Below the pieces are notes generated by a model. That model ran no database searches, was not told where the DNA came from, and worked only from the letters and a program-made list of their open reading frames with translations. Below, piece after piece: positions 1 to 55,298 of a stretch of DNA of 64,000 bases. Source of the DNA: Patescibacteria group bacterium (GTDB taxonomy: Bacteria > Patescibacteriota > Patescibacteriia > UBA9570 > JAHJKD01); contig JAZDOC010000006.1 in assembly GCA_043798935.1 (NCBI GenBank), positions 24,996-88,995 of the forward strand, in the 5' to 3' direction. Positions within the stretch are counted from its first letter, which is position 1. Each line of letters begins with the position of its first letter. The position numbers and the translations under genes were made by a program.

Positions 1-95
1 CAGATCACTTCAATATCTGTCTTATGGCGCGCAAGCCGGAATTATATTTATCGTTTTTATAAGTTTATTTGCCAATCATTTTGAAATACGTTCAA

Positions 96-1286
96 CTATG
101 ATTTTACTTTGGTTGTTGCCAGCATTAATTGCACGGTGGCGGTTAGCTCTTGATTCATAATTTCCGCCGTAAAATGATTTTCAGCATAAGCCCTGGATTT
201 TCGCGCCAGGTCTTTTTTTGTTGATTCATCTAAATTTATAAACCACAGCATTTTATCGGCAATGGCTTGTGGCGATGCACTATCCATTATCAATTCTTTA
301 TTTATCGGCGTTAGTATTTCCTTAGTAGCGCCTATCGGAGTTCCAATTACCGGTAGAGCGGAAAATAATGCTTCCAGCGTGGAAATACCCACACCTTCTA
401 AAGCTAATGTTGGCAGTACAAAACACGAAGCTGTTTGATAATGCTTTATTAATTGTTGATCACTTATAACACCCAAGAAGAATAAGCAATCTTGAATGTT
501 AAGTTTGGCGGCAAGATTATGGCATTCTTTTTCCAAGGGTCCGGAGCCGGTCAAAAAAACTTTAAAATTAATATTTTTATCTTTTAAAATTTTTGTGGCT
601 TTAATTAAGTTTAAAACACCGGTGCGAGGGCTTAAACGACGCGAAGTAAAAAAAATGTTTTTTGAATAATCACGGTTAAAATTAGCACTAAACATATCCT
701 TAGGAATACCCGGTGCCAGCGCTTGCAGTTTATTTTTTATTTCCGGATATTTTTCTGCCAGAATTTTTTTGGAAAAGTTGCTTAAATATAATATTTTATC
801 GCTGGTAAGGAGAGTTGTTTTTTCTTTTCGCGCCGTAAAAGCAGTAATTATTTTTTTAGACAGAAAATTATTTAAACATGGCTTAGTCAGGCCTTCAAAA
901 GAAATTTCCATGGGCCGTGAACTATGAAAAATATACAAGGCCGGAATTTTTATATTTTGTTCAAAGAAAATCGAACCGATTAAAGGATGATGAATAATTA
1001 CCAGATCAAATGTTTGTTTTTGTAGTAATTGTTTTAAATATTTTTTTGATTTAAATAAGATGGAATATAAAGTTGACCCCGGAAATGAAAAAGAACTGCC
1101 GGCGCGAATTATTTTTATATTTTGAAACCGCTCTTGCCGTTTTAAATTTTTTCGATAATAAGTGGAGAAAACCGTAATGTCGTATCCGTTTTTTTGCAGT
1201 GCCTGGGCTTGCCATAAAGCCAGTCTTTCGCTGCCGCCAAAAGTATCCGGGTACCATCTTTCAGTTAAAATAAGTATTTTTTTCAT
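96..1286 (-). CDS. glycosyltransferase family 4 (GT4, group 1)
   Basis: C-terminal GT-B motif EGVGISTLEALFSALPVIGTPIGATKEIL typical of GT4; N-terminal Glyco_trans_4-like region. Confidence 0.8.
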   Translation of the reverse strand: MKKILILTERWYPDTFGGSERLALWQAQALQKNGYDITVFSTYYRKNLKRQERFQNIKIIRAGSSFSFPGSTLYSILFKSKKYLKQLLQKQTFDLVIIHHPLIGSIFFEQNIKIPALYIFHSSRPMEISFEGLTKPCLNNFLSKKIITAFTARKEKTTLLTSDKILYLSNFSKKILAEKYPEIKNKLQALAPGIPKDMFSANFNRDYSKNIFFTSRRLSPRTGVLNLIKATKILKDKNINFKVFLTGSGPLEKECHNLAAKLNIQDCLFFLGVISDQQLIKHYQTASCFVLPTLALEGVGISTLEALFSALPVIGTPIGATKEILTPINKELIMDSASPQAIADKMLWFINLDESTKKDLARKSRAYAENHFTAEIMNQELTATVQLMLATTKVKS

Positions 1287-1348
1287 TTACAATTATTGGT
1301 TAGTATGTTTTAATTATCATATATTACTATAGCAGATTTACATTAAAA

Positions 1349-2239
1349 ATGGAATTAAAACAAAAGCAAAAATTAATAAAAAAACAATTTGAGCTAGAGA
1401 AAAATTACGCTCAACAAATTTTAAAATCCGAAAAAAATTCATTAGCTCGAAAAAATTTAATTGCTCGGGCATATTGCGATGTAACAAATATTATTTATCA
1501 ATATAACCCTCATCAGGCGTACAGTCGCTTCAACGAATTCACCACTGCTCTCGTTAAAAAAAATTTACCGATCAAAAAAAATGTTAGAGTACTCGACTTT
1601 GGTTGCGGTGATGGCGAGTTGGTTCTCTCGTTAAATAAAAATAATGTCGATGCTTATGGGTTTGATGTTTCCGAAAACAGCATTCGCGAAGCCCAAAAAA
1701 AATTAGCTGTTATTAATAAAGAAAAAAATGTTTTCCACGGTGATTTTAATCAAATTCAAGAAAATTTCGACTTAATCATTATGGATAATGTTATAGAGCA
1801 TTTAGTACCAGACGAGCTCCCGGCGATTATCAGTAAGTGCCATGAGTTATTAAACAACCAAGGAATATTACTAATAATTACACCGCATCCTTTTTCCGGC
1901 CCGCATGATATCAGTAATGAATTTTTACCTCTGGGTGCTAAAGCCCAAGGCCTGCATTTAAAAGAATATAAATTGGAGGAATTAAAAGATGTTTTAGAAC
2001 AGAATAATTTTAGCGCTCTTTACGGCTATGGCATGCATCCGCGGATTTTAAATAAATTAAATGTTATTTTTAAAGCAAGCACATTCGGCTTGAAAAAATC
2101 TTTATGGTTAGAGAATTTTTTCGGTAAAAACTTACGATTTATTTTTAACATCAACAGAAATTTATCTCGTCTGTTGAATGCTTTGCTGTTTCCTAATATA
2201 ATTATCGCAAAAAAACATGAAAATCTTACAAATAAATAA
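1349..2239 (+). CDS. class I SAM-dependent methyltransferase
   Basis: Motif I VLDFGCGDGELVLSL plus downstream acidic residue (DVSEN); about 300 aa. Confidence 0.65.
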   Translation: MELKQKQKLIKKQFELEKNYAQQILKSEKNSLARKNLIARAYCDVTNIIYQYNPHQAYSRFNEFTTALVKKNLPIKKNVRVLDFGCGDGELVLSLNKNNVDAYGFDVSENSIREAQKKLAVINKEKNVFHGDFNQIQENFDLIIMDNVIEHLVPDELPAIISKCHELLNNQGILLIITPHPFSGPHDISNEFLPLGAKAQGLHLKEYKLEELKDVLEQNNFSALYGYGMHPRILNKLNVIFKASTFGLKKSLWLENFFGKNLRFIFNINRNLSRLLNALLFPNIIIAKKHENLTNK

Positions 2240-3368
2240 ATTTTGGCATCCCAAAGGCGGCGCCGATACCATGGCCATTAATACTGCAAAATGGCTGGAG
2301 CAAGCCGGCCATGAAGTTGCCAGATTCGGTATGAAGAGCGAAAAGAATATTGATTCAAAATGGAATAAATATTTTATAGATGAAATAGATTTCGGATCGG
2401 CAGATTTTTCTTTATCTAAAGCCGCGCATTTTATTTATTCAACTCAAGCTAAGGAAAAACTCAAGCTACTATTAAAAGAATTCCAACCAGACGCAGTGCA
2501 TCTGCATAATTTTTATCATCATTTAACCACTTCTATTTTGCCCATATTAAAAAGCACCGGCGCAAAAATTATCATGACTTGTCATGACTACAAAATCATG
2601 TGCCCGAATTATAAAATGTTGTCGCATGGAGAAATTTGCGAGCAATGCAGATATCATAATTATTATAAAGCCGCGTTAAATAAATGCACGAAAAATTCTT
2701 TGCCCGCTAGCTTACTGCTCAGCACTGAGGCTTACTTTAATTGGCTGGGAGATAGATATAAAAAGAACATCGACTTATTAATTGCCCCGTCAAAATTCAT
2801 GCAGAAAAAAATAAAAGAATGGCAAGTCGGCATCGACAGCGAATTTTTATTGAATGCCATAGATATCAAACCGTTAGATCAGCCGGCTGTTAAAAAAGAT
2901 TATTTATTATATGTCGGCAGACTGAGCGAAGAAAAGGGGATTGATTTACTAGAAAAAGTTGCTCTGAAAATGCCCGAACAGAAATTTTATATTATCGGTG
3001 ATGGCCCTTATAAAATTAATAACAATATTTCCAACTTAAAATATTTAGGCAGAAAGAATCAAGAAGAAGTTCAGCAATATTTGGCTCAAGCTAAAGCATT
3101 GATCGTGCCGTCGAAATGGTATGAAGTAAACAGCTTGGTTATCCCTGAAGCGCATGCCCTGGGTACCTGGGTAATTGCCGCGAATACCGGTTCTATTGAT
3201 GTTATTAATGATGGCCAAAACGGATGGTTTTTTAAGATGAACAATGTTAATGATTTAATCTCTAAAATTAAATCATTAGAAATTCAAAAAACTAGCTTTC
3301 AGCCTTTTTTGCATATTACTGCTAACGAGTATATTAATAAATTATTAACTTTTTATCCAAGAAGATAA
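2217..3368 (+). CDS. glycosyltransferase family 4
   Basis: GRLSEEKGIDLL ... EAHALGTWVIAANTGSIDVINDGQNGWFF GT4 C-terminal signature. Confidence 0.75.
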   Translation: MKILQINKFWHPKGGADTMAINTAKWLEQAGHEVARFGMKSEKNIDSKWNKYFIDEIDFGSADFSLSKAAHFIYSTQAKEKLKLLLKEFQPDAVHLHNFYHHLTTSILPILKSTGAKIIMTCHDYKIMCPNYKMLSHGEICEQCRYHNYYKAALNKCTKNSLPASLLLSTEAYFNWLGDRYKKNIDLLIAPSKFMQKKIKEWQVGIDSEFLLNAIDIKPLDQPAVKKDYLLYVGRLSEEKGIDLLEKVALKMPEQKFYIIGDGPYKINNNISNLKYLGRKNQEEVQQYLAQAKALIVPSKWYEVNSLVIPEAHALGTWVIAANTGSIDVINDGQNGWFFKMNNVNDLISKIKSLEIQKTSFQPFLHITANEYINKLLTFYPRR

Positions 3369-4259
3369 ATCACGATTTATTAATTTAGATAATTTTTCGA
3401 TATCTAGCTGATAATATTTTGTAAGTTGTTTTTTTGTTTCCGGATCCATAGGAATTTTTTTTAAGTTTTTGGCTTTAACCTGATCACGCATATTGTTCCA
3501 GCTTTTTTCCGGAATTATTTTTTTTAAAATTGATTTTAATTCATCTTTAAGCGGCGCCGGCTTATGCAATAAATTGTATAAAAATTTATTTTTTGGAATA
3601 CCGGAAACATTATGCCGGCGGGATATATCGGGAACGAAATTATCGTCGACTTGCAAAAATTGATAAATGTCTTTTATAATGTTTAACGGTTTTGTTCTGA
3701 GGTCGTCAAATAAATAAATTTTCACCTGTGAAAAATTATCTAAAAAATCTTTTACTTGTTTATAGTATAAACCGGCTTTTTTATATTGCCAGCCCCATTC
3801 CCAATTATTTTGCCGCCTTATTGTTTCTTGCTCTAAGCCCATATTAAATGGCAAATTTTCGCGGAAATCACGAATAAAATGCAAATATTGCGAATAAGCT
3901 CTTTCCACCGGGTTTCTAAGAATGATAATTATTTTAATGTCGCCTAATATTTTTTTAATTTTGGCCACGCTTTGATCGTGATAAAAAAGATAATCCGGGG
4001 ATGCTTCGCCGATAGCAATTTCATTTTTTACGCTACTGAATAATTTTTCGTATTCGCCAAGATTTCTAACGATAACATTATTAAGCGCCACATCATCGCC
4101 AGGCCCCTGATAGTTCTCGTTCATGTCAGAAAAAAATTTGCTTTCTTTGGTGTCGGGCATAAAAATTTGCGGATGCTGATGCAGGTAATCAGCCAGCGAA
4201 GTTGTACCGCATTTTGCTGCGCCGACTATTAAGAAATTTGGAAGATTTTTTTTGTTCAT
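3345..4259 (-). CDS. PAPS-dependent sulfotransferase (Sulfotransfer_1-like)
   Basis: 5'-PSB motif IVGAAKCGTTSL and 3'-PB-like RNPVERAYSQY; about 300 aa cytosolic sulfotransferase size. Confidence 0.7.
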   Translation of the reverse strand: MNKKNLPNFLIVGAAKCGTTSLADYLHQHPQIFMPDTKESKFFSDMNENYQGPGDDVALNNVIVRNLGEYEKLFSSVKNEIAIGEASPDYLFYHDQSVAKIKKILGDIKIIIILRNPVERAYSQYLHFIRDFRENLPFNMGLEQETIRRQNNWEWGWQYKKAGLYYKQVKDFLDNFSQVKIYLFDDLRTKPLNIIKDIYQFLQVDDNFVPDISRRHNVSGIPKNKFLYNLLHKPAPLKDELKSILKKIIPEKSWNNMRDQVKAKNLKKIPMDPETKKQLTKYYQLDIEKLSKLINRDLSSWIKS

Positions 4260-4260
4260 A

Positions 4261-5565
4261 TTACCTGGTTATAAAAGGAAAATAAAAAGCGTTAATATTA
4301 TTTTTTTGCTTAATCATTATTACCGACGCTATATTCCACAAAGCCATGCTGATAAAACTGGCAATAGCCGCGCCATTAATACCGTATAAGGGTATTAAAA
4401 ATAAATTTAAAATAATATTTAAAGCCATGGCAAGAATCACAATGTTGCGAAAAGCAGTTTCACTACCGGTCATTTTCATAAAAGATCCGGCCGTTCCACA
4501 AATCGCATTTAGAAATTGGGATAAAGCTAAAATAATAACAACGTTTCGACCGACTGTAAATTCAGGTCCAAATAAATTCATTAAAAATCCAGACATAATA
4601 ATTAATAACAACACCACCGGTAGCGAAAACCAAAAAATTATTTTAGCCGAAAAGTTAACAATATTTTCAAGTTCAGTTTGTTTTTTGGCCCAAAATAAAT
4701 GGGAAAATTTTGGCGCCACCACGGTGTTAAGAGCTATTAATATAAAACTGGTGGTGGCGGCTAATTTTATCGCTACGTTATAAATACCAATACTATCTGT
4801 GGAGGTAAAAATTCCCAGCATAAAAGTGTCGGTGTAGGTCATGAAAAAGAAAGCTAAGCCTGTAATCATCATGGCTGAAGAACTTTTAATAATTTGCCTT
4901 CTGGATTCAGAAATTTTTTCGGATTGAGTAAAATTTTTAAACTTGGCAAACAAGTAAAAACTGGAAATTAAAAAAGCAATGCTTAAAGAAATATCGTAAA
5001 TTACAACCGGTAAATTAATATCTTTATGACCAAGTGTTAAAATTAAAATTATGTTTATTATCGGAATTATGGAGCGGCGTAAAAATTCAGATAATTTAAT
5101 ATTGTTGAAGCCTCTGATTAATTCAACATTAATTAAAAATAAAACATAAAACGGAACTACCAAGCTAATAATTTTTAAACTCGCTGCCAAATCAGCGTCT
5201 TTAAATATTATTTCCGAAAGAGCATTTGAAAAGGTGTATAAAAGGATGCTTATAATAATTGAAATCGGAATTGATATTTGAAAAAAAATTTTATAGAGAT
5301 CTTTTATTTTATATAGCTTATTCTCGGATTGAAATTTACCGATATATTTTAGTGATGCGTTATTAAAACCAAAATTAGCCATCATGCCTAAAACAAATAA
5401 ACTGGCTGTAGCCAAGCTGTAAATACCGGTTCCACGAGCGCCATAATTGTGCGCAATTATATAAATAAATCCATAACCGGCTATCAGCCCAATAATAATC
5501 ATGATAAAAGCCGATAAGCTGTTTTTTAAAATGTTAGTATTGACAGAATCGTTATTTTTTGCCAT
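4261..5565 (-). CDS. polysaccharide flippase, MOP/Wzx family (start trimmed to MAKNND to avoid divergent overlap)
   Basis: 12-14 predicted TM helices, about 435 aa, composition typical of oligosaccharide flippases. Confidence 0.6.
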   Translation of the reverse strand: MAKNNDSVNTNILKNSLSAFIMIIIGLIAGYGFIYIIAHNYGARGTGIYSLATASLFVLGMMANFGFNNASLKYIGKFQSENKLYKIKDLYKIFFQISIPISIIISILLYTFSNALSEIIFKDADLAASLKIISLVVPFYVLFLINVELIRGFNNIKLSEFLRRSIIPIINIILILTLGHKDINLPVVIYDISLSIAFLISSFYLFAKFKNFTQSEKISESRRQIIKSSSAMMITGLAFFFMTYTDTFMLGIFTSTDSIGIYNVAIKLAATTSFILIALNTVVAPKFSHLFWAKKQTELENIVNFSAKIIFWFSLPVVLLLIIMSGFLMNLFGPEFTVGRNVVIILALSQFLNAICGTAGSFMKMTGSETAFRNIVILAMALNIILNLFLIPLYGINGAAIASFISMALWNIASVIMIKQKNNINAFYFPFITR

Positions 5566-5577
5566 ATTTGTATTATA

Positions 5578-7602
5578 ATGAATAAAATTAAAAAATACAA
5601 AAGATCTGTTTTCGTTCAAAACAGTTTTTTAATAACTGGGCTGTTTTTATTGTTTTTTCCGTTTACTCTAAAAGCGGCTAATATTCATGAATATCCTAAA
5701 TTGTCTCTGTATCACTTAAATTCGGTTTTCGATGAGGAACAAGCTAAGAAAATCGCTCAATTCGATTTAGTAATTCTTACTATGGAAGCTCAGGAATATA
5801 ATCCTCAGGGCATTAAATTATTACGACAATACAATCCAAACATCACTATTCTTCCGTATGTACCCAGCCAAGGAGTCCATTTTTCCGACGCCTCAAATAT
5901 CAGATATAAGTTAATCAAACAAGTCCAAGATAGCTGGTATTTATTAGACGGCGATGGCAATAGAATTTCCCGGTATAAGGGTGAATACGATATGAACATT
6001 ACAAAAAAAGCTTGGCGAAAAGCTTTGGTAAATTTTGTAAAAGATTTAAACACGGCTAAATGCAATGGCGTACGCTGTTGGGACGGTGTCTTTTTTGATG
6101 TGGTTGAAGATAATTTAGATTATTTAGGTGGCATTGATATTAATAATGATGGTGAGGCCGATGATAGTAAATATGTAAATGAAAAGTGGGTGGCAAGCTA
6201 TAAAAAAATATTCAAATCAACCCGAAAAAAATTAGGCAAAAACAAAGTAATTGTAATTAACGGAGTTTCGACAAAAAAACTGCAAGCCAATGTTAACGGC
6301 CGTATGTTTGAAAATTTTCCGACTCCATGGCACGCCGATGGCTCGTGGAAGGGGGTAACTGAAAATACAGTTGATCTGGAAGAATTGAATTATTCGCCGG
6401 TATCAATTATTTTTTCCGCCGAGGGTGATGAAAATGATTATCAAAAATTAAGGTATTCATTAACATCAGCCATGGTTTTTGGAGCTTATGGCGGTTATGA
6501 TAACGGCATTAGTAAAGTTCATAAAAGTGTCTGGCTTTACGATGAATATCAAACTAAATTAGGAAACGCACTAAATACCGGTTATAATTTGCTTGATATA
6601 AATAATACCAAAGTTAAACCCGGTGTTTGGCGGCGTGATTTTGAAAATGGGATAGCCATTGTGAATTCCACAAATATAGCACACAAAGTATTATTAGAGC
6701 AGGGTTTTGAAAAAATCAATGGAACTCAGGGAAATATAAACGATGGCAGTTTGGTTGGCAGTGTAACTATTAATGCCAACGACGGCATTGTTTTATTAGG
6801 CAGAATTCAAACAATTTCATACGCGCCATTTGTAAACGGCGCTCAGGCCAAGGTTTACAACATTAACGGCGTTTCTCAAAGAAAAACTTTTTTCCCCTAT
6901 GACTCTAAATATCCGGGTAGTGTGCAGATTGTGAAATTGCCGGATGTTAATAAAGCTGTAGTAGCTGAAGACACTTATGTAAGCGTTTACAAGAACAATA
7001 AATTAGTAGCTAAGTTTGCGCCTTATGGCGAAGCTTTTTCGGGCGGAGTAAATATTGCGGTTGATCGGTTATACAGCCGAGGCAATAAAGGGGATTATTT
7101 TATTGTTACTGGTACTGAAAAATATGGTCCTCATGTAAGAATATTTACAATTGATGGCAAATTACATGATCCGGGTTGCTTTCCTTATGCGGAAAATTTT
7201 CGCGGTGGAGTATTTGTAGCCATTGGCGACGTGGATAAAGGAAATGCGGGCAAAGAGATTGTGGTTTCAGCCGGCCTTGATGGCGGTCCGCATGTTCGAA
7301 TTCTCAATAATAAGTGCGAGTTAATTAGCCCTGGTTTCATGGCTTACGACACATCCCTCCGTACCGGAATCAATGTAGCTGTGGGCGACGTAAACGGCGA
7401 TGGCAAAAACGAAATTATTACGGGTACTGGTCCGGGCGCCGGTCCGGAAGTGCGGGTTTTTAATAAAAATGGTAAACTATTAAGTAGTTTTTTCGCTTTT
7501 AATAAAAGCGATCGAAACGGCGTCAGAGTCTCGACAGCTGATGTAAGCGGTAATTCAAGAAAAGAAATCATTGCCACCAGTTTCGCTATTTATGGATACT
7601 AA
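5578..7602 (+). CDS. secreted protein: N-terminal signal peptide, putative TIM-barrel glycan hydrolase-like domain, C-terminal FG-GAP repeats
   Basis: Signal peptide LFLLFFPFTLKAANI; repeated VAxGDVNGDGKNEIxTG / AIGDVDKGNAGKEIVVSAG FG-GAP-type repeats in the last about 200 aa. Confidence 0.5.
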   Translation: MNKIKKYKRSVFVQNSFLITGLFLLFFPFTLKAANIHEYPKLSLYHLNSVFDEEQAKKIAQFDLVILTMEAQEYNPQGIKLLRQYNPNITILPYVPSQGVHFSDASNIRYKLIKQVQDSWYLLDGDGNRISRYKGEYDMNITKKAWRKALVNFVKDLNTAKCNGVRCWDGVFFDVVEDNLDYLGGIDINNDGEADDSKYVNEKWVASYKKIFKSTRKKLGKNKVIVINGVSTKKLQANVNGRMFENFPTPWHADGSWKGVTENTVDLEELNYSPVSIIFSAEGDENDYQKLRYSLTSAMVFGAYGGYDNGISKVHKSVWLYDEYQTKLGNALNTGYNLLDINNTKVKPGVWRRDFENGIAIVNSTNIAHKVLLEQGFEKINGTQGNINDGSLVGSVTINANDGIVLLGRIQTISYAPFVNGAQAKVYNINGVSQRKTFFPYDSKYPGSVQIVKLPDVNKAVVAEDTYVSVYKNNKLVAKFAPYGEAFSGGVNIAVDRLYSRGNKGDYFIVTGTEKYGPHVRIFTIDGKLHDPGCFPYAENFRGGVFVAIGDVDKGNAGKEIVVSAGLDGGPHVRILNNKCELISPGFMAYDTSLRTGINVAVGDVNGDGKNEIITGTGPGAGPEVRVFNKNGKLLSSFFAFNKSDRNGVRVSTADVSGNSRKEIIATSFAIYGY

Positions 7603-7603
7603 T

Positions 7604-9405: not shown

Positions 9406-9426
9406 GTTTTTATCCACACGAATCCC

Positions 9427-11235: not shown

Positions 11236-11250
11236 TATATTATAAGGGCT

Positions 11251-13941: not shown

Positions 13942-13953
13942 TATAATAACATC

Positions 13954-15261: not shown

Positions 15262-15265
15262 AAAT

Positions 15266-19178: not shown

Positions 19179-19187
19179 AAATAAAGC

Positions 19188-21565: not shown

Positions 21566-21571
21566 AAAAAT

Positions 21572-29245: not shown

Positions 29246-29249
29246 ATGT

Positions 29250-39975: not shown

Positions 39976-40002
39976 TATAATAACTATCTATATTGTCTCA
40001 CG

Positions 40003-49495: not shown

Positions 49496-49590
49496 ATTTT
49501 TAATTTTTTGTTCCTTGAATAAATTCAGGTTTAAAAAATCAATGTAAATATAGAGGCCCTGAATTTATTCAGGGTGTCAAAAAATAATAA

Positions 49591-50859
<1,269 letters not shown>

Positions 50860-50871
50860 TTAAAAATAAAC

Positions 50872-51552
50872 ATGGCAGTTTATCATGATAGAGATCCAAG
50901 AGAAAAATTACCGCCGCTAATTCAAGTGGAAGAGTATTTAACTGATCCCGGATTAATTAGTTTTATTAACGAGCAGGTCGACGCCTATATTCAAGATTTA
51001 GAACAAATTAATGGTGTTACACAAGGACTGCAACAAGAAAAACGATTAACTCCTCAAGCGCAAGAAGCTCTACAGCAACAAAAAAAAGATACCCTTAAAA
51101 AAATTGAGGCTGTTCGGTTGATGGCACAAACCAGGGCAGTTGCTAGTCATTTTAAAATCAATAATCAAGCAGCTATATTATTAATTGAACAAATAAATAA
51201 TAATAGAAAGCTGAGATTGATAGCAGAGCGTCGGCCCACAGTACCAAGAACACTGCAAAGAGAGCTAACGCTTGAAAGAACGAAGCGCAAGCCTAAAATT
51301 TTAGAAATATTAGAAAGCAAGTCGAGCGTGGCAGAAGTACGTGAATTTATTGAATATCTTCATAGAGAAAAAGATAATAAAGAAATAGTTTTAGATGCTA
51401 GTCAATCGCAGTTCGCTTATGAAATAGTAAATAACAGCCGAGACAGAGGACCAATTGTTTTTCTTCGCGATGCTGGTAATAGACGCAATGTTGTAAGTTT
51501 AACACCTCAGTTTAAAAAAGTTGTTCTTGAAATAGTTGCTTATTATAAATAA
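50872..51552 (+). CDS. hypothetical protein (Gln/Glu-rich, predicted coiled regions)
   Basis: 226-aa ORF, no recognisable motif. Confidence 0.3.
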   Translation: MAVYHDRDPREKLPPLIQVEEYLTDPGLISFINEQVDAYIQDLEQINGVTQGLQQEKRLTPQAQEALQQQKKDTLKKIEAVRLMAQTRAVASHFKINNQAAILLIEQINNNRKLRLIAERRPTVPRTLQRELTLERTKRKPKILEILESKSSVAEVREFIEYLHREKDNKEIVLDASQSQFAYEIVNNSRDRGPIVFLRDAGNRRNVVSLTPQFKKVVLEIVAYYK

Positions 51553-51602
51553 TTAAATGATTTAGACAAGCTAAATCATAACATTAGTATGAATATAAAA
51601 TG

Positions 51603-51635
51603 TTATGACACAGCTTGCCTTGGTCAGAATAAAAA
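51603..51635 (+). other. conserved leader motif copy B (TTATGACACAGCTTGCCTTGGTCAGAATAAAAA), ends 4 nt before the ATG at 51640
   Basis: 31/33 identical to copy A at 17726-17758. Confidence 0.5.
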
Positions 51636-51639
51636 AAAT

Positions 51640-52101
51640 ATGATTAACGGTGTAAAAATTAAAGAAATAAAAACGCATGCCCACGGGCGGGGAAATTTTC
51701 AGGAAATTCTTCGTGACGATGATAATCTTTTAGAGAAATTTGGGCAATGTTCAATTACTGTCACTTATCCGGGCGTGATTAAAGCTTTTCATTGGCACAA
51801 AAAGCAAGATGATTTATGGTATGCGGTCAGTGGAAATGCCAGAGTGGTGCTTCATGATTTGCGAAAAGAATCAGAAACCTATGGTCAAACCCAAGAAATA
51901 TATATGGGTGAAAACAGTAATAATTCAAGAATAGTGCTTATTCCTAAAGGTGTAGCCCACGGGTATCAGGTTTTAGGAAACAGTAATTTTACTTTAATGT
52001 ATTTTACAACATTGTCTTACGACCCAAAAAATCCAGATGAAGAAAGAATCTCTTATGATGATAAAAATATTAATTTTGATTGGACTATTAAACACGAATA
52101 A
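51640..52101 (+). CDS. rmlC: dTDP-4-dehydrorhamnose 3,5-epimerase-like cupin (start corrected to MINGVKIKE)
   Basis: GRGNFQEI, FHWHKKQDDLWYAVSG, PKGVAHGYQVL: RmlC-family motifs; ORF-track start at 51589 would place the conserved leader motif inside the CDS. Confidence 0.65.
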   Translation: MINGVKIKEIKTHAHGRGNFQEILRDDDNLLEKFGQCSITVTYPGVIKAFHWHKKQDDLWYAVSGNARVVLHDLRKESETYGQTQEIYMGENSNNSRIVLIPKGVAHGYQVLGNSNFTLMYFTTLSYDPKNPDEERISYDDKNINFDWTIKHE

Positions 52102-52103
52102 TT

Positions 52104-53105
52104 ATGAAGCTATTAGTTACCGGCGGGGCTGGATTCATTGGATCAAATTTTATTCTTCAATATTTAAAAAATAATCCTGCAGATGAAATTGTTAATTTAG
52201 ATAAATTAACTTACGCAGGCAATTTAGAAAATTTAAAGTCTGTAGAAAAGAACAGCCATTACAAGTTTGTGAAAGCAGACATTTGCAATTATCAGGTTAT
52301 TGAGCCATTAGTTGAAAATTGTGATATTGTAGTTCACTTTGCGGCCGAATCACATGTGGATAGATCTATTTTAGGGCCGACTGAGTTCGTTCAAACAAAT
52401 GTCTTGGGAACACAAACCATTTTAGAAGCAGCGAGAAAATTTAATCGACGCTTTCATCATGTTTCAACCGACGAAGTTTTTGGTCAGTTGGAATTGAATA
52501 CTGATACAAAATTTAGCGAAACCACGGCGTATAACCCGTCCAGCCCGTACTCAGCGTCGAAAGCGGCTTCAGATCATTTAGTGCGCGCTTATTATGAAAC
52601 TTATAAACTGCCGATTACCATTTCTAACTGCACGAACAATTATGGCCCATTTCAATTTCCGGAAAAGTTAATACCATTATTCATTACAAATTTAATTGAA
52701 GGTAAAAAAGTACCGGTTTATGGTAATGGTTTAAATGTACGCGACTGGATTCATGTTGATGATCATAATCGAGGGGTGGAGCTGATTATTAAAAAAGGGG
52801 AAATTGGTCAAACTTATTGCTTGGGCGGAGAGTCGGAAAAGAGCAACTTAGAAATAACCAAAATTATTTTAAATGCTTTTAATAAAGGTGAAGAGAGTAT
52901 GGAATATGTTAAAGATCGTCCGGGGCACGATTTACGATACGCCATGGATATTTCTAAAATTAAAAAAGAATTAGGCTTTAATCTGGAAAAAACTTTCGAA
53001 CAGGGGATTAATGAAACCATTGAATGGTATAAAAATAATGAAGTGTGGTGGAAGAATGTTAAATCCGGCGAGTACAAAGAATATTATCAAAAACAATATC
53101 AATAA
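52104..53105 (+). CDS. rmlB: dTDP-glucose 4,6-dehydratase
   Basis: MKLLVTGGAGFIGSNF, HVSTDEVFG, SPYSASKAASDHLVRAY. Confidence 0.85.
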   Translation: MKLLVTGGAGFIGSNFILQYLKNNPADEIVNLDKLTYAGNLENLKSVEKNSHYKFVKADICNYQVIEPLVENCDIVVHFAAESHVDRSILGPTEFVQTNVLGTQTILEAARKFNRRFHHVSTDEVFGQLELNTDTKFSETTAYNPSSPYSASKAASDHLVRAYYETYKLPITISNCTNNYGPFQFPEKLIPLFITNLIEGKKVPVYGNGLNVRDWIHVDDHNRGVELIIKKGEIGQTYCLGGESEKSNLEITKIILNAFNKGEESMEYVKDRPGHDLRYAMDISKIKKELGFNLEKTFEQGINETIEWYKNNEVWWKNVKSGEYKEYYQKQYQ

Positions 53106-53114
53106 TATAATTTT

Positions 53115-53549
53115 ATGACTAGTAATTATAAAATTAATTATCATTATCCCGAGACAAATGTCGGCGTGATTATGAATGACGACGGAATTTTAGAAATTCA
53201 TTATTCAGAAAACACTTATACAGAAGAAGAGAATGTGGCAGAAACAGTTTGGGTGCGAGATACGCTAGATAAAATTATTAGTGATTACCCGGATATTAAA
53301 ATTTATGCTTTAATGGATGTTACTTCGGCCGGCGACGCTGAGGAAATTAGTGATGAATCAATGAAAATTTACAGCAAGACAATGAATTATCCGCAAGTTA
53401 AAAATATTGCAATTTTCGGACAAACCAAATGGTTTGCTATGTTATTAAATATCATGGTTAAACTAAGTAAAACTTTCGGCAAAACAAAATTGTTTGATGA
53501 TAAAGAAAATGCAATAGCCTGGCTGAAAGAAAAAAAAGCAAAAAGATAA
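53115..53549 (+). CDS. hypothetical protein inserted between rmlB and rmlD
   Basis: 144 aa, acidic, no recognisable motif. Confidence 0.3.
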   Translation: MTSNYKINYHYPETNVGVIMNDDGILEIHYSENTYTEEENVAETVWVRDTLDKIISDYPDIKIYALMDVTSAGDAEEISDESMKIYSKTMNYPQVKNIAIFGQTKWFAMLLNIMVKLSKTFGKTKLFDDKENAIAWLKEKKAKR

Positions 53550-53574
53550 ATAAAATAGCAAAGGCAATAAATAG

Positions 53575-54408
53575 ATGGATAAAACTAAAATAATAATTAC
53601 CGGTGCCAATGGGATGCTAGGGCACGATTTACAAGAAAAATTTAAAGATTTTAATTTACTTTGTTTTGATAAAGATAATTTAGATATTACTAATTATAAA
53701 CAGGTAAGCGAAATTATTAGTCGGGAAAAACCACAGGTCGTTATTAATGCAGCCGCTTATACAGATGTGGATGGATGCGAAACCAATAAAGATTTGTGTA
53801 TGCAAATTAATGGTTATGGTGTCGGAAATTTAGCCCAGGCTTGTAAAGAAAATGATGTTATATTAGTGCATTACAGTACTGATTACATTTTTAATGGTCA
53901 AAATAAAGATGGCTACAGCGAAGATTATAATGAAATCGATCCAATTAGTGTTTATGGCCAAAGTAAAGCGCTGGGAGAAAAATTAATTAAAGAGAATTGT
54001 GATAAATATTATATTTTAAGAACTGCTTGGTTATATGGAAAAAACGGTAAGAATTTTGTTGATACCATGATAAAGCTAGGCCAAGAAAAAGATGAGCTTA
54101 AAGTTGTTGATGATCAGCATGGTAGCCCGACATTTTCGAAAGATTTAGCGCAGGAAACAAAAAAAATTATTGCCAACCTTAAACCTGATTTTGGTGTTTT
54201 TCATGTTACTAATTCCGGAAATTGTACTTGGTTTGAATTTGCTAAAGGAATTTTTAATATTAAAAATATTAAAATAAAATTAGAGCCTTGCACAAGCAAT
54301 GAATTTCCGCGACCAGCGCGCCGGCCAAAATATTCTATTTTACTTAATACCAAATTATCAGAATTAAGAACTTGGCAAGAAGCGCTGAAAGACTATCTCA
54401 AAGATTAA
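53575..54408 (+). CDS. rmlD: dTDP-4-dehydrorhamnose reductase
   Basis: IIITGANGMLGHDL, SVYGQSKALGE (YxxxK), 277 aa. Confidence 0.8.
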   Translation: MDKTKIIITGANGMLGHDLQEKFKDFNLLCFDKDNLDITNYKQVSEIISREKPQVVINAAAYTDVDGCETNKDLCMQINGYGVGNLAQACKENDVILVHYSTDYIFNGQNKDGYSEDYNEIDPISVYGQSKALGEKLIKENCDKYYILRTAWLYGKNGKNFVDTMIKLGQEKDELKVVDDQHGSPTFSKDLAQETKKIIANLKPDFGVFHVTNSGNCTWFEFAKGIFNIKNIKIKLEPCTSNEFPRPARRPKYSILLNTKLSELRTWQEALKDYLKD

Positions 54409-55298
54409 TTCATTAAACTTAATTCCCAAAAATTATCGTCTGTTTCATAAAACAGGTTTTTTTGTTTTTTATTGGTTGTAAAATTATAAGCATTGTTAAT
54501 AGATACTAATTCATAAGTTTGGCGCAAATCGCGATTATCAAGCTCGATGGCTTTAACGGCGCTGTTTTCACTGTAAATTATATAATCATCAGATAGCCAG
54601 ACTGCTTCATTAATAGCCTCGCTCTGCCTGGTAATAAGCTCTTCTTGCATGGTGTCATAATAATATACCCAGATTTCCATGGGATTATAATAAAGAAGCA
54701 AATTATGTTTTTGGTTCCAAGCGAAATTCGTAACTGCGGAACCGAATTTCTTAACGCTCATAGCATCATTATTTAATTCAACGATATAAAGCATCCGGGT
54801 TTTTTCATCCAAAATAGTTAAAAGATTGCTGTATTTTTCATAATTTATTTTAGGTGATATATTCAGTTCGGTTAATACGCTCGCAATTTCCGCATCCATG
54901 TTTTCTTGCGGTGCCATGGCCGGATAATTATCTTTAGAAATTTTTTTCGGTTCAGCATTTTTTAATAAATTTAGCTCTTTAACAAAAGTTGTTTCCATGG
55001 ATAAAACATCTAATTTTTTCTCCCAGGAAAAATAACCATCGAAATTAATTTTTACACTGTATTCACCTGGGATCAGGTTATTTATAAGAACCGGTGTTTT
55101 TTTAGGATTAAAATCGCCGTTTACATAAAGACTGGCATTTTTAGGAATGGTCTCAATATACAGGCTTCCGGTTTTTACTACTTGCATTTTTTTTTTATTT
55201 ATTCGATATCCGGAGGCATATAGAAGTAACATCGGAATTAGGATGATGGTAAGAATAAAAATGAACCAAAAATATATATCACGATAAGCTTTTTTCAT
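54405..55298 (-). CDS. membrane-anchored protein with PEGA-like domain
   Basis: N-terminal TM helix, then SLYVNGDF...NLIPGEYSVKINFDGYF resembling a PEGA domain. Confidence 0.4.
   Translation of the reverse strand: MKKAYRDIYFWFIFILTIILIPMLLLYASGYRINKKKMQVVKTGSLYIETIPKNASLYVNGDFNPKKTPVLINNLIPGEYSVKINFDGYFSWEKKLDVLSMETTFVKELNLLKNAEPKKISKDNYPAMAPQENMDAEIASVLTELNISPKINYEKYSNLLTILDEKTRMLYIVELNNDAMSVKKFGSAVTNFAWNQKHNLLLYYNPMEIWVYYYDTMQEELITRQSEAINEAVWLSDDYIIYSENSAVKAIELDNRDLRQTYELVSINNAYNFTTNKKQKNLFYETDDNFWELSLMN

What the first reader, a model, noticed from the sequence alone, without database searches (positions are those of the whole stretch)
1..55298. 55-kb glycan island with three Wzx-type flippases and at least 15 glycosyltransferases, but no initiating phosphoglycosyltransferase, Wzy or Wzz recognisable in the window
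Three MOP flippases (4261-5565, 30001-31488, 41113-42420) imply at least three separate lipid-linked oligosaccharide pathways. Precursor genes cover UDP-GlcA, UDP-Xyl, UDP-GalA, UDP-Galf, GDP-4-keto-6-deoxymannose and dTDP-rhamnose. There is also methylation (MTase at 1349-2239 with ahcY nearby), sulfation and phospho-alcohol decoration. I could not identify a WecA/WbaP-type initiating transferase, a chain-length regulator or a clear polymerase. The large GT-C proteins may take the polymerase or ligase roles. Such density and diversity of surface-glycan genes is striking for what appears to be a small, streamlined genome.
Basis: partly seen in the sequence, partly recalled or inferred. Interest (0 to 1): 0.5.

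Follow-up and report, generated by a model that had tools for sequence, protein, structure and literature searches.

The report
Patescibacteria envelope-glycan locus with conserved core
The first 55 kb of the window is a real, densely packed surface-sugar gene locus of a tiny "candidate phyla radiation" bacterium; its middle 25 kb is a gene cassette shared by distant relatives, which hints at how these uncultured bacteria build their unknown cell envelope.

Summary
Positions 1-55,298 are 97% coding. They carry three MOP/Wzx flippases and 16 glycosyltransferases: 7 GT4, 5 GT2 and 4 GT-C, one of which has an in-frame stop. They also carry nucleotide-sugar, PAPS-sulfation and CDP-alcohol genes. 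A Pfam sweep of every ORF of at least 55 aa found no WecA/WbaP-type initiating transferase, Wzy, Wzz, LCP, TagF or LicD.

The organism is a Patescibacteria (CPR) MAG. The locus has four parts:
- a variable left module (1-9.3 kb);
- a ~25-kb core (9.5-34.8 kb) that is collinear in six other Patescibacteria contigs;
- a low-GC variable Wzx/Glf module (36.6-47.8 kb);
- a conserved rml/ahcY block next to murA.

Three GT2s look like polyprenyl-phosphate sugar synthases. With GtrA or Wzx and the GT-C enzymes they fit multi-component transmembrane glycosylation systems, so the GT-Cs are probably not polymerases. None of eight cassette neighbourhoods holds an initiating transferase, so it is probably encoded elsewhere, as wecA, gacO and tagO are. 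A route without one is not excluded.

The least precedented feature is a narrow GT-C family always paired with a CDP-alcohol phosphotransferase. The left flank could not be retrieved. Functions are inferred from homology.

The parts
96..1286 (-). GT4 glycosyltransferase (variable left module).
   Evidence: PF00534 at 1.6e-29. No counterpart in related loci.
1349..2239 (+). SAM-dependent methyltransferase.
   Evidence: PF13489 at 1e-19.
2217..3368 (+). GT4 glycosyltransferase.
   Evidence: PF00534 at 5.7e-23.
3345..4259 (-). PAPS-type sulfotransferase.
   Evidence: PF13469 and PF00685 at about 1e-12. N-terminal GAAKCGTTS motif, a 5'-PSB-like site.
4261..5619 (-). MOP flippase no. 1 (Wzx/MATE-like, about 10 TM).
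   Evidence: PF01943 at 1.5e-18 and PF01554 at 2.5e-9. TM count. Only generic MOP hits in NCBIfam.
5578..9340 (+). Two membrane-anchored or secreted proteins: a GHL15 glycosyl-hydrolase-like protein with FG-GAP repeats (5578-7602) and a DUF11 protein (7571-9340).
   Evidence: PF14885 at 2.4e-26 and PF01345 at 5e-10. One N-terminal TM each.
9496..10644 (+). GT4 with a DUF1972 N-terminal domain. This is the first gene of the conserved core.
   Evidence: PF00534 at 4e-33 and PF09314 at 26.8 bits. Full-length weak match to rhamnosyltransferase Cps2T, 89 bits. 55% identical homolog in L036.
10813..11982 (+). GtrA-family small membrane protein (10813-11235) followed by a soluble GT2 resembling a polyprenyl-phosphate sugar synthase (11251-11982).
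   Evidence: PF04138 at 1.8e-25 and PF00535 at 1.5e-22. AglJ, PgfS, ArnC and PpgS are the best NCBIfam hits. The same pair occurs in L034 and L037; L036 has only the GtrA gene there.
11960..15261 (+). UDP-sugar block: UXS-like decarboxylase (11960-13003), GalE-like 4-epimerase (13000-13941) and UDP-glucose 6-dehydrogenase (13954-15261).
   Evidence: Best PDB matches are human UXS1 at 2.6e-68 and the T. maritima 4-epimerase 4zrm at 1e-89. UGDH scores 479 bits against a cut-off of 190. 65-76% identical UGDH in six related loci.
15212..16204 (+). GT2 with C-terminal TM helices: a polyprenyl-phosphate hexose synthase-like enzyme (AglJ, Dol-P-hexose and PpgS type).
   Evidence: PF00535 at 1.6e-19. 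Full-length AglJ match, 85 bits. TMs at about residues 239-300. 57-76% identical in L032, L034, L035, L036, L037 and L038.
16227..17249 (+). GT4 glycosyltransferase.
   Evidence: PF00534 at 3e-39.
18030..22177 (+). PAPS module: ATP sulfurylase (18030-19178), DHH-family PAP phosphatase (19188-20183), NPP-like alkaline-phosphatase-superfamily enzyme (20180-21565) and APS kinase (21572-22177).
   Evidence: PF01747 at 6e-92, PF01583 at 3e-69 and PF01663 at 4e-42. The DHH protein's only PDB match is the PAP phosphatase 8a8k at 1.3e-19. Same gene order in L032, L034, L037 and L038.
22260..24017 (+). GT-C glycosyltransferase of a narrow, Patescibacteria-associated family (585 aa, invariant D38-D39 after TM1).
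23989..24678 (+). CDP-alcohol phosphotransferase 1. It overlaps the GT-C gene and is paired with it in all 8 genomes viewed.
   Evidence: PF01066 at 3e-13. Best NCBIfam hits are DIPPS, AIP synthase and PIP synthase. Signature motif intact at residue 91. Pairing seen.
24647..25966 (-). GT87-family GT-C gene interrupted by a single in-frame TAG.
   Evidence: PF09594 at 6.6e-19 on the 3' part, and profile positions 1-26 on the 5' part. Single frame with one stop. Absent from relatives.
25914..29984 (-). CDP-alcohol module, read along the - strand: cytidylyltransferase-like NTP transferase (29250-29984), glycerol-1-phosphate dehydrogenase-like enzyme (28193-29245), CDP-alcohol phosphotransferase 2 (27499-28203) and NPP-like enzyme 2 (25914-27518).
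   Evidence: Pfam hits. G1PDH NCBIfam match at 2e-84, and PDB G1PDH 4rgq at 1e-43 against classical glycerol dehydrogenases at about 1e-13. The NTP transferase best matches LicC at 6.6e-11, then the 6pd1 nucleotidyl transferase/class-V aminotransferase fusion. Motif intact in CDP-AP2. Same order in L029, L032, L034, L037 and L038.
30001..31488 (-). MOP/Wzx flippase no. 2 (conserved core).
   Evidence: PF01943 at 5e-18 and PF13440 at 5e-14. 29-57% identical homologs at the same position in six loci.
31485..32372 (-). GT2 glycosyltransferase (soluble).
   Evidence: PF00535 at 3.5e-22.
32445..33926 (+). PMT/ArnT-like GT-C (493 aa, about 10 TM, an NDEYYH motif after TM1).
   Evidence: PF13231 and PF02366 at about 1e-4. 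Homologs in relatives carry clear PMT and PMT_2 hits. Sequence.
33923..34846 (-). ArnC/PgfS-like polyprenyl-phosphate glycosyltransferase (GT2 with two C-terminal TMs). It is adjacent to the GT-C.
   Evidence: PF00535 at 8e-36. Full-length matches to ArnC (189 bits) and PgfS (183 bits). TMs.
34879..36426 (+). Membrane-anchored 515-aa protein of unknown function.
   Evidence: No Pfam, NCBIfam or PDB match. A 36% identical homolog lies directly upstream of rmlA in L001.
36643..37665 (+). GDP-mannose 4,6-dehydratase.
   Evidence: TIGR01472 at 446.6 bits against a cut-off of 415.
37701..41100 (+). Three GT4 glycosyltransferases (37701-38870, 38857-39975, 40003-41100) in the low-GC variable module.
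   Evidence: PF00534 hits. GC of 24-29%. No counterparts in relatives.
41113..42420 (+). MOP/Wzx flippase no. 3.
   Evidence: PF01943 at 2.7e-57.
42407..44432 (+). UDP-galactopyranose mutase (42407-43519) and a GlfT1-like GT2 (43509-44432).
   Evidence: TIGR00031 at 398.7 bits against a cut-off of 304. GlfT1 match at 109 bits.
44460..46700 (-). Large GT-C glycosyltransferase. The ORF is 746 aa, the NCBI call is 593 aa, and GC is 22%.
   Evidence: P0001 is 100% identical and named 'glycosyltransferase family 39 protein'. A conserved SIWYDEG motif follows a TM. The 21 best Foldseek PDB hits are all GT-C enzymes, although the model is poor at pLDDT 52.
46844..47797 (+). Extended SDR, a nucleotide-sugar epimerase or reductase of unassigned specificity.
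   Evidence: PF16363 and PF01370. No NCBIfam equivalog cut-off reached.
47854..54408 (+). Conserved block: rmlA (47854-48576), nucleoside kinase (48566-49495), ahcY (49603-50859), unknown (50872-51552), rmlC (51589-52101), rmlB (52104-53105), STAS-like gene (53115-53549) and rmlD (53575-54408).
   Evidence: Largely the same genes, 52-73% identical, lie next to murA in L001.
54405..55298 (-). Membrane-anchored PEGA-domain protein. This is the last gene before murA.
   Evidence: PF08308 at 9e-11. Homolog at the same position in L001.

Best explanation
The region is the main cell-envelope glycan locus of a Patescibacteria (CPR) bacterium. It is a conserved backbone with variable inserts.

Shown:
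- A ~25-kb core (9.5-34.8 kb) is collinear in at least six other Patescibacteria contigs.
- A rmlACBD/nucleoside-kinase/ahcY block next to murA is also conserved.
- The left 9 kb has no counterpart in relatives.
- Neither does the 36.6-47.8 kb module, whose genes at 37.7-46.7 kb have low GC.

Inferred mechanism:
- Cytoplasmic enzymes make UDP-GlcA, UDP-Xyl (and possibly its 4-epimer), UDP-Galf, a GDP-6-deoxyhexose precursor, dTDP-rhamnose, PAPS and a CDP-alcohol. The CDP-alcohol is most likely CDP-glycerol made from glycerol-1-phosphate.
- Three GT2 enzymes load single sugars onto polyprenyl phosphate.
- GtrA and/or the MOP flippases move these lipid-linked sugars across the membrane.
- The GT-C enzymes transfer them to an outside acceptor. 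This is the logic of multi-component transmembrane glycosylation, as in GtrABC, CsbB/GtcA/YfhO, GacIJKL and ArnC/ArnT.
- In parallel, soluble GT4 and GT2 enzymes extend lipid-linked oligosaccharides that Wzx flips.
- Sulfate, phospho-alcohol and methyl groups make the product anionic and decorated. That would suit a teichoic-acid-like role in a bacterium without LPS.

The initiating phosphoglycosyltransferase, any polymerase and any wall ligase are not part of the locus. They are most likely encoded elsewhere in the genome.
For: - **Organism.** MurA (TIGR01072, 500.8 bits against a cut-off of 392.7) best matches Patescibacteria MAGs at 58% identity or less. Window proteins are 100% identical to NCBI 'Patescibacteria group bacterium' entries V1898_01555 / MFH0818658.1.
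- **Conserved core.** Gene order and 30-78% identity hold in L032, L034, L036, L037, L038, L029 and, in minimal form, L035.
- **Conserved rml block.** Largely the same rml/ahcY/murA genes occur in L001, on the same contig as L029.
- **Variable module.** GC is 25.8% at 37.7-46.7 kb against 33-34% elsewhere (Mann-Whitney p = 8e-8). Relatives have no counterparts.
- **Polyprenyl-phosphate sugar synthases.** 33923-34846 matches ArnC and PgfS full length at 189 and 183 bits. 15212-16204 is AglJ/Dol-P-hexose/PpgS-like with C-terminal TMs. 11251-11982 sits beside a GtrA gene.
- **Flippase precedent.** Wzx-type GacK and a MATE flippase are described for polyprenyl-P-sugars (PMC8035078; PMC11127046).
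- **PAPS set.**
- **CDP-alcohol set.** A G1PDH-clade dehydrogenase, a LicC-like cytidylyltransferase and intact CDP-alcohol phosphotransferase motifs.
- **Missing functions.** No initiating transferase, Wzy, Wzz, LCP, TagF or LicD in any ORF of at least 55 aa. None within about 10 kb (less where a contig ends) either side of the core GT-C gene in the seven relatives viewed.
- **Hint of an Und-PP-sugar acceptor.** A DUF1972-type GT4 resembling Cps2T points to an acceptor made by a transferase encoded in trans.
Against: - Every function is inferred from homology, often below curated cut-offs. This applies to G1PDH (283 bits against 413), RmlA, RmlC, all three GT2 sugar-synthase assignments and the PMT hit of the 493-aa GT-C.
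- No acceptor, product or carrier lipid is known.
- The pairing of particular GT2s, flippases and GT-Cs is by adjacency only.
- The left flank of the window, and the rest of the 102-kb contig and the MAG, could not be read. A transferase 'elsewhere' is therefore an assumption.
- No known multi-component system includes a CDP-alcohol phosphotransferase, so part of the core is unexplained by this model.
- One GT-C (GT87) is disrupted.
- The role of the two NPP-like enzymes is unknown.
Confidence: 0.6

Rival explanations
1. This is a standard Wzx/Wzy-dependent O-antigen or capsule cluster. Its initiating transferase, polymerase and chain-length regulator lie just outside the window on the left.
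For: - The window starts inside the locus: a GT4 ends at position 96. About 38 kb of the 102-kb source contig is unseen.
- There are three Wzx genes and many soluble GT4 and GT2 genes.
- The DUF1972-type GT4 resembles Cps2T, which acts on an Und-PP-sugar.
Against: - The seven relatives' cassette views, up to about 10 kb either side of the core GT-C gene, hold no PF00953, PF02397, Wzy_C or Wzz hit.
- By published description, CPR bacteria lack LPS genes (PMC5220378).
- Four GT-C genes, three polyprenyl-phosphate sugar synthase-like GT2s, two CDP-alcohol phosphotransferases and a PAPS operon are not features of standard O-antigen or capsule clusters.
- The right flank is housekeeping.
Confidence: 0.12
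2. Assembly does not need a phosphoglycosyltransferase and is archaeal-like. An AglJ-like GT2 starts the glycan on polyprenyl monophosphate, soluble GTs extend it, a Wzx (AglR-like) flips it, and a GT-C transfers it en bloc to proteins such as pilins or S-layer proteins.
For: - The best NCBIfam hits of several core genes are Haloferax Agl proteins: AglJ for 15212-16204 and 11251-11982, AglM for UGDH (406 bits), AglF for the NTP transferase and Agl16 for GT4s.
- The core GT-C aligns structurally with AglB, STT3 and PglB about as well as with ArnT and Pmt4.
- No initiating transferase appears in eight neighbourhoods.
- Type IV pilus genes pilM and pilN lie 7 kb downstream.
Against: - All Agl matches are far below equivalog cut-offs.
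- No WWDYG motif is present. Only a 'TWQYG' sits at a comparable position, which may be coincidence.
- No acceptor sequon evidence exists.
- Absence from a neighbourhood does not show absence from the genome.
Confidence: 0.13
3. The locus makes a lipoglycan or glycolipid, in a PIM/LM-like or LTA-like way. The CDP-alcohol phosphotransferases build or remodel a glycerophospholipid anchor, for example from scavenged diacylglycerol and CDP-glycerol. GT4 enzymes glycosylate the anchor inside the cell, and GT-C enzymes extend it outside using polyprenyl-P-sugars.
For: - The CDP-alcohol phosphotransferases fall in the PIP/AIP/DIPP synthase clade and keep the catalytic motif.
- The part list of GT87 (the PimE family), GT4s, polyprenyl-phosphate sugar synthases and PMT_2-like GT-Cs parallels mycobacterial PIM/LM synthesis (PMC3485146 and PMC12041525, listed).
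- The strict pairing of GT-C with CDP-AP suggests a lipid acceptor made next door.
- By general knowledge, CPR bacteria lack de novo lipid synthesis. PMC5220378 notes missing fatty-acid and isoprenoid pathways.
Against: - The window has no inositol-phosphate synthase and no LtaS-type polymerase.
- GT87 is disrupted here and absent from relatives.
- The cytidylyltransferase resembles phospho-alcohol activators such as LicC, not CdsA.
- There is no direct evidence for a lipid acceptor.
Confidence: 0.15

Closest known systems
Multi-component (three-component) transmembrane glycosylation systems: GtrA/GtrB/GtrC, CsbB/GtcA/YfhO, GacI-J-K-L, and the polyprenyl-phosphoribose synthase/MATE/GT136 systems.
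   Same: The part list matches: GT2 polyprenyl-phosphate sugar synthases (one with a separate small membrane partner), a GtrA or MOP-type flippase, and GT-C transferases with an acidic motif after TM1. The GT2 at 33923-34846 and the GT-C at 32445-33926 are adjacent.
   Different: - Several systems are stacked in one locus.
- They are fused with PAPS and CDP-alcohol modules.
- The core GT-C family is a narrow lineage of its own.
- That family is always paired with a CDP-alcohol phosphotransferase, which no described system contains.
- The polymer being decorated is unknown.
Arn pathway of Gram-negative bacteria (Ugd, ArnA, ArnC, ArnT).
   Different: There is no aminotransferase, formyltransferase or deformylase, and no lipid A in CPR. 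The sugar would be GlcA, Xyl or a 4-epimer rather than Ara4N.
Wzx/Wzy-dependent O-antigen, capsule and secondary cell-wall polysaccharide clusters.
   Same: Wzx flippases, blocks of GT4 and GT2 genes, nucleotide-sugar genes (rml, glf, gmd), and a compositionally atypical variable module.
   Different: No Wzy, Wzz/PCP, initiating transferase or LCP ligase is detectable. The organism has no LPS pathway according to the CPR literature.
Pneumococcal teichoic acid decoration (LicC cytidylyltransferase, LicD phosphotransferase, TacF Wzx-type flippase) and TarI/TarJ CDP-ribitol synthesis.
   Same: A dehydrogenase and a cytidylyltransferase make a CDP-alcohol next to a Wzx flippase. The nearest solved relative of the NTP transferase is LicC.
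   Different: The transferase is a membrane CDP-alcohol phosphotransferase (PF01066), not a LicD or TagF enzyme. The alcohol phosphate is predicted to be sn-glycerol-1-phosphate, from an archaeal-type G1PDH homolog.
IPCT/DIPPS (di-myo-inositol phosphate) and CDP-glycerol-dependent phosphodiester synthesis in hyperthermophiles.
   Same: Both halves of the bifunctional IPCT/DIPPS enzyme match separate genes here, at 79 and 64-84 bits. The CDP-alcohol phosphotransferase motif is intact.
   Different: There is no inositol-1-phosphate synthase. The genes are embedded in a flippase, GT-C and GT operon rather than a compatible-solute context.
Haloferax volcanii Agl N-glycosylation pathway (AglJ, AglM, AglF, AglR, AglB).
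   Same: The cast is similar: an AglJ-like GT2, UGDH, an NDP-sugar pyrophosphorylase-like enzyme, a Wzx-like flippase and a GT-C. That pathway starts without a phosphoglycosyltransferase.
   Different: All matches are well below equivalog cut-offs. No WWDYG motif is present. The organism is a bacterium with peptidoglycan genes: murA lies next to the locus.

Membership tests
Wzx/Wzy-dependent polysaccharide cluster | Wzx (MOP/PST) flippase | tested here: met
   Three PF01943 proteins.
Wzx/Wzy-dependent polysaccharide cluster | Wzy polymerase | tested here: not met
   No PF04932, PF14296 or EpsG hit in any ORF of at least 55 aa. Every multi-TM protein is accounted for as Wzx, GT-C, CDP-AP or GtrA. 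Wzy proteins are divergent, so a miss is possible, but no unassigned candidate remains.
Wzx/Wzy-dependent polysaccharide cluster | Initiating phosphoglycosyltransferase (PF00953 or PF02397), in the cluster or in the genome | tested here: inconclusive
   Absent from the window and from the neighbourhoods of seven relatives, up to about 10 kb either side of the core GT-C gene. The rest of the genome was not readable.
Wzx/Wzy-dependent polysaccharide cluster | Chain-length regulator (Wzz/PCP) | tested here: not met
   No PF02706 hit.
Multi-component transmembrane glycosylation system | GT2 polyprenyl-phosphate glycosyltransferase, membrane-anchored or with a separate membrane partner | tested here: met
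   33923-34846 is ArnC/PgfS-like over its full length with 2 TMs. 15212-16204 is AglJ/PpgS-like with C-terminal TMs. 11251-11982 is adjacent to a GtrA gene. This is homology only, below equivalog cut-offs.
Multi-component transmembrane glycosylation system | GtrA-type or Wzx/MATE-type flippase | tested here: met
   PF04138 at 10813-11235, plus three MOP proteins. Which substrate each one flips is not testable here.
Multi-component transmembrane glycosylation system | GT-C fold transferase with an acidic motif in the first outside loop | tested here: met
Multi-component transmembrane glycosylation system | Polyprenyl-P-monosaccharide donor and a defined polymer acceptor | not testable with these tools
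   Needs biochemistry or glycan analysis.
PAPS-dependent sulfation pathway | ATP sulfurylase, APS kinase, PAP phosphatase and sulfotransferase, without PAPS/APS reductase | tested here: met
   PF01747, PF01583, the DHH match to PDB 8a8k PAP phosphatase, and PF13469/PF00685 with a PSB-like motif. No reductase family appears in the window.
CDP-alcohol phosphotransferase family (PF01066) | D(x)2DG(x)2AR(x)7-12G(x)3D(x)3D motif in a multi-TM protein | tested here: met
   Both paralogs carry the full motif, at residues 91 and 78, and have 3-5 predicted TMs.
IPCT/DIPPS di-myo-inositol phosphate system | myo-Inositol-1-phosphate synthase supplying the alcohol phosphate | tested here: not met
   No MIPS family hit in the window. 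The adjacent dehydrogenase is G1PDH-like instead.
Wall teichoic acid pathway (TagO/TagA/TagF/TagGH) | TagF-type CDP-glycerol glycerophosphotransferase, ABC exporter and LCP ligase | tested here: not met
   No PF04464, ABC transporter or PF03816 hit in the window.
dTDP-L-rhamnose pathway | RmlA, RmlB, RmlC and RmlD | tested here: met
   RmlB (482 bits against 365) and RmlD (312 against 224) pass equivalog cut-offs. RmlA (291 against 361) and RmlC (70 against 156) match below cut-off but have clear Pfam hits.
Oligosaccharyltransferase (STT3/AglB/PglB) | WWDYG motif and preferential structural similarity to oligosaccharyltransferases | tested here: not met

The most novel reading that the evidence does not exclude
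The conserved core is a Patescibacteria-specific pathway that needs no classical phosphoglycosyltransferase. A CDP-alcohol phosphotransferase, always paired with its own narrow GT-C family, would use CDP-glycerol made from archaeal-type sn-glycerol-1-phosphate. With polyprenyl-P-GlcA or pentose donors and PAPS, it would build a sulfated, glycerophosphate-containing lipoglycan or wall polymer. That polymer would be a CPR analogue of teichoic acids made by new enzymology, including a possible sulfuryl or phosphoryl-transfer role for the NPP-like enzyme conserved inside the PAPS operon.
Probability: 0.2. Interest if true: 0.75.

Novelty: new variant of a known kind. Interest (0 to 1): 0.5.

Why it matters
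The cell envelope of CPR/Patescibacteria is chemically unknown. These bacteria make up a large share of bacterial diversity, and many are thought to live attached to other cells (my general knowledge, not tested here). PMC5220378 states that the envelope's formation and structure 'remain unclear'.

A cassette that keeps its gene order across distant Patescibacteria gives a concrete and testable candidate for their main anionic surface polymer. The cassette combines uronic-acid and pentose activation, polyprenyl-phosphate/GT-C glycosylation, PAPS sulfation and a glycerol-1-phosphate-derived CDP-alcohol.

The variable modules beside it are candidate determinants of strain-specific surfaces, which could matter for recognition by phages or host cells. 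The fixed pairing of a GT-C with a CDP-alcohol phosphotransferase may also point to enzymology with no described precedent.

Tried and rejected
**Retrieving the left flank or the whole genome.** All attempts failed.
- Exact-protein look-ups of four window proteins found nothing, including the NCBI-called P0001.
- The genome-contig scan found only relatives of 58% identity or less.
- The metagenome-contig scan found only remote GT4s.

**Searches that returned nothing.**
- Sequence searches of the three large unknown proteins against the PDB gave only noise.
- There are no tRNAs and no Rfam families in the window.
- The low-GC module has no flanking direct or inverted repeats beyond AT-rich chance matches, and no mobile-element genes.

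**Low-value result.** The 746-aa GT-C model had low confidence (pLDDT 52). I used it only for fold class.

**Readings I considered and rejected.**
- *A di-inositol-phosphate or inositol-lipid pathway.* There is no inositol-phosphate synthase.
- *A classical wall teichoic acid pathway.* There is no TagF, TagGH or LCP.
- *Assimilatory sulfate reduction.* The window has no PAPS/APS or sulfite reductase.
- *Recent gene duplication as the source of the many GTs and flippases.* All paralog pairs are 32% identical or less.

**Literature.** Six searches aimed at CPR/Patescibacteria found no paper describing this cassette. The library is limited, so this is not proof of novelty.

Full report
**Observation**

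The window has about 32% GC, no tRNA genes and no Rfam hits. Positions 1-55,298 are 96.6% coding.

- Three MOP/Wzx flippases lie at 4261-5619(-), 30001-31488(-) and 41113-42420(+).
- There are seven GT4 and five GT2 glycosyltransferases.
- There are four GT-C enzymes. Two of them had no Pfam hit and had to be identified another way.
 - The 746-aa ORF (44460-46700) is 100% identical to an NCBI protein named 'glycosyltransferase family 39 protein'. It has a conserved WYDEG motif after a TM helix. Its model is poor, but its 21 best Foldseek hits are all GT-C enzymes.
- The GT87 gene (24647-25966) is a single reading frame broken by one in-frame TAG.

This gives 16 glycosyltransferases, 15 of them intact.

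**The absences**

None of the 59 ORFs hits PF00953 (WecA/MraY), PF02397 (WbaP/PglC), Wzy, Wzz, LCP, TagF or LicD, even at relaxed thresholds for the proteins with no assignment. I then swept the other 127 six-frame stop-to-stop ORFs of at least 55 aa. Only ribosomal protein L27 turned up. Every multi-TM protein is accounted for as Wzx, GT-C, CDP-alcohol phosphotransferase or GtrA, so no unassigned Wzy candidate remains.

**Precursor and decoration genes**

- GMD, Glf, RmlB and RmlD pass NCBIfam equivalog cut-offs. UGDH passes the nucleotide-sugar dehydrogenase cut-off. RmlA and RmlC match below cut-off.
- 11960-13003 best matches human UDP-glucuronate decarboxylase at 2.6e-68, so UDP-Xyl is supported.
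- 13000-13941 is a GalE-like 4-epimerase, so UDP-GalA is a guess.
- The sulfation set is complete. It comprises ATP sulfurylase, APS kinase, a DHH protein whose only PDB match is an archaeal PAP phosphatase, and a sulfotransferase with a PAPS-binding-type motif. The window has no reductase.
- The 'phospho-alcohol' genes form an operon on the - strand:
 - a cytidylyltransferase whose closest solved relative is LicC, followed by the 6pd1 nucleotidyl transferase/aminotransferase fusion;
 - a dehydrogenase in the glycerol-1-phosphate dehydrogenase clade, at 1e-43 to G1PDH structures against about 1e-13 to classical glycerol dehydrogenases;
 - a CDP-alcohol phosphotransferase with the full catalytic motif;
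 - an NPP-like alkaline-phosphatase-superfamily enzyme.

**Organism and source**

The gene at 55302-56636 is murA. Its closest relatives among GTDB species representatives are Patescibacteria MAGs at 58% identity or less. Window proteins are identical to NCBI entries from a 'Patescibacteria group bacterium' MAG (V1898_01555 = MFH0818658.1) on a 102,189-bp contig.

That contig could not be read with any tool. What lies left of position 1 is therefore unknown. The right flank holds murA, ctpA, rplI, pyrG, rpmA, a class-V aminotransferase and pilN/pilM, all housekeeping.

**Architecture: the main new result**

Look-ups of homologs of the 585-aa GT-C returned neighbourhoods from seven other genomes. 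Window 9.5-34.8 kb is collinear, at 30-78% protein identity, with contigs from:
- a JGI metagenome (L032);
- two Kerfeldbacteria-like MAGs (L034, L037);
- L038 and L036;
- in part, L029.

The shared gene order is as follows. Not every locus carries every gene, and the strand of a few flanking glycosyltransferases differs.
1. DUF1972-type GT4
2. GtrA
3. GT2
4. UXS-like decarboxylase
5. 4-epimerase
6. UGDH
7. AglJ-like GT2
8. GT4
9. ATP sulfurylase
10. PAP phosphatase
11. NPP-like enzyme
12. APS kinase
13. GT-C
14. CDP-alcohol phosphotransferase
15. On the opposite strand: NPP-like enzyme, CDP-alcohol phosphotransferase, G1PDH-like enzyme, cytidylyltransferase, Wzx and a GT
16. PMT-like GT-C

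A minimal version, UGDH - GT2 - GT-C - CDP-alcohol phosphotransferase, sits among housekeeping genes in L035.

The GT-C and CDP-alcohol phosphotransferase pair is present in 8 of 8 genomes. Of the 40 phosphotransferase homologs on contigs of at least 7 kb, 29 share their contig length with a contig holding a GT-C homolog. The GT-C family is narrow, with 65 cluster representatives among 1.84 billion proteins.

Two parts look variable.
- Window 1-9.3 kb has no counterpart in relatives.
- Window 36.6-47.8 kb has none either. Its genes at 37.7-46.7 kb average 25.8% GC against 33-34% elsewhere (p = 8e-8). It has no flanking repeats or mobile-element genes.

The rmlA, nucleoside kinase, ahcY, rmlC, rmlB, rmlD, PEGA and murA block is conserved in L001. 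L001 lies on the same contig as L029, about 20 kb from the cassette, which is the same overall layout as the window.

**Mechanism (inferred)**

Three GT2s look like polyprenyl-phosphate glycosyltransferases.
- 33923-34846 matches ArnC and PgfS over their full length and has two C-terminal TMs.
- 15212-16204 is AglJ/Dol-P-hexose/PpgS-like with C-terminal TMs.
- 11251-11982 is soluble but sits beside a GtrA gene.

[quoted passage not shown] The chain UGDH, UXS-like decarboxylase, GT2, GT-C also mirrors the Arn pathway. I therefore read the GT-C proteins as extracytoplasmic transferases fed by polyprenyl-P-sugars, not as polymerases. I also do not take the three flippases to prove three oligosaccharide pathways.

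The soluble GT4 and GT2 enzymes, the GlfT1-like GT2 next to Glf and the Cps2T-like DUF1972 GT4 still argue that at least one lipid-linked oligosaccharide is built and flipped. The Cps2T resemblance hints at an Und-PP-sugar acceptor. Such an acceptor would come from an initiating transferase encoded elsewhere, as in systems where wecA, gacO or tagO lie outside the glycan cluster (my own knowledge; TagO initiation is described in PMC8035078).

Sulfate, a phospho-alcohol (probably glycerol phosphate) and methyl groups would make the product anionic. That suits a bacterium that lacks LPS according to published CPR genome analyses (PMC5220378).

**What this model does not explain**

- No described system pairs a GT-C with a CDP-alcohol phosphotransferase.
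- The two NPP-like enzymes have no assigned role. One is conserved inside the PAPS operon.
- Most relatives' cores show no recognisable sulfotransferase. L038 is the exception.

These gaps leave room for three rivals:
- a standard Wzx/Wzy cluster cut off by the window edge (confidence 0.12);
- an archaeal-like route without an initiating phosphoglycosyltransferase, ending in protein glycosylation (0.13);
- lipoglycan or glycolipid synthesis on a phospholipid anchor made by the CDP-alcohol phosphotransferases (0.15).

The last two overlap with the main model in most steps.

**Novelty and score**

Every individual family is known. High GT counts and rmlABCD have been reported for a Parcubacterium: 20 GTs genome-wide (PMC5220378). 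What I could not find described is the conserved cassette itself, and in particular three things:
- the GT-C and CDP-alcohol phosphotransferase pair;
- the G1PDH-based CDP-alcohol module;
- the PAPS operon.

Six literature searches aimed at CPR/Patescibacteria found nothing. The library is limited, so this does not prove novelty.

I class the finding as a new variant of a known kind, with interest 0.5. All functions rest on homology, and the key absence cannot be extended to the whole genome with the tools available.

Noticed in passing
window 24647-25966 (-): The GT87-family GT-C gene is one continuous frame interrupted by a single in-frame TAG. It could be a pseudogene, a strain polymorphism or a sequencing error. 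The gene is absent from the same position in relatives.
   Followed up: partly
window ~60179-60454 (-): A ribosomal protein L27 gene (rpmA) sits in the 461-nt 'gap' between pyrG and the aminotransferase. It was missed by the ORF list of at least 100 aa.
   Followed up: yes
L032, L034, L036, L037, L038 (contig coordinates): In all five long relatives' contigs, the fetched locus around the cassette starts 8-39 kb from a contig end (8.6, 13.5, 14.3, 12.4 and 38.8 kb). Assemblies may tend to break in a hypervariable region next to the cassette.
   Followed up: no
window 20180-21565; L032 7965-9347; L034 8007-9398; L037 7974-9362; L038 6136-7527: An NPP-like alkaline-phosphatase-superfamily gene is conserved inside the PAPS operon, between the PAP phosphatase and the APS kinase. 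Most cores have no recognisable sulfotransferase; only L038 has a weak Sulfotransfer_2 hit. The role of this enzyme is unexplained.
   Followed up: partly
window 44460-46700 (-): The NCBI gene call (593 aa) starts 153 codons downstream of the longest ORF. Homologs P0002, P0003, P0005 and P0006 also have an N-terminal multi-TM region before the GT-C core, so the annotated start is probably too late.
   Followed up: partly
L039 3736-6876: The 47-48% identical homolog of the 746-aa GT-C sits beside a phosphoribosyltransferase-family gene (Pribosyltran). This recalls the polyprenyl-phosphoribose synthase/MATE/GT-C systems that add furanoses. In the window the same GT-C sits next to Glf and a GlfT1-like GT2.
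   Followed up: no
L036 12787-19084: One relative replaces the G1PDH/cytidylyltransferase/CDP-AP2/Wzx block with a MurJ-like flippase and three tandem NPP-like paralogs. No ATP sulfurylase is visible in that view.
   Followed up: no
L029 3427-4404: An exosortase (EpsH-family) gene lies about 3 kb upstream of the core GT-C in the marine-biofilm relative, next to two beta-helix proteins.
   Followed up: no
window 50872-51552 and 53115-53549: A 226-aa protein of unknown function lies between ahcY and rmlC; L001 has a 227-aa ORF just downstream of ahcY, before rmlB. A STAS/SpoIIAA-like gene lies between rmlB and rmlD, inside the rhamnose block.
   Followed up: no
window 62003-63993 (-): pilM and pilN, plus a 180-aa single-TM protein (possibly a pilO analogue), mark the start of a type IV pilus assembly operon at the right edge of the window.
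   Followed up: no
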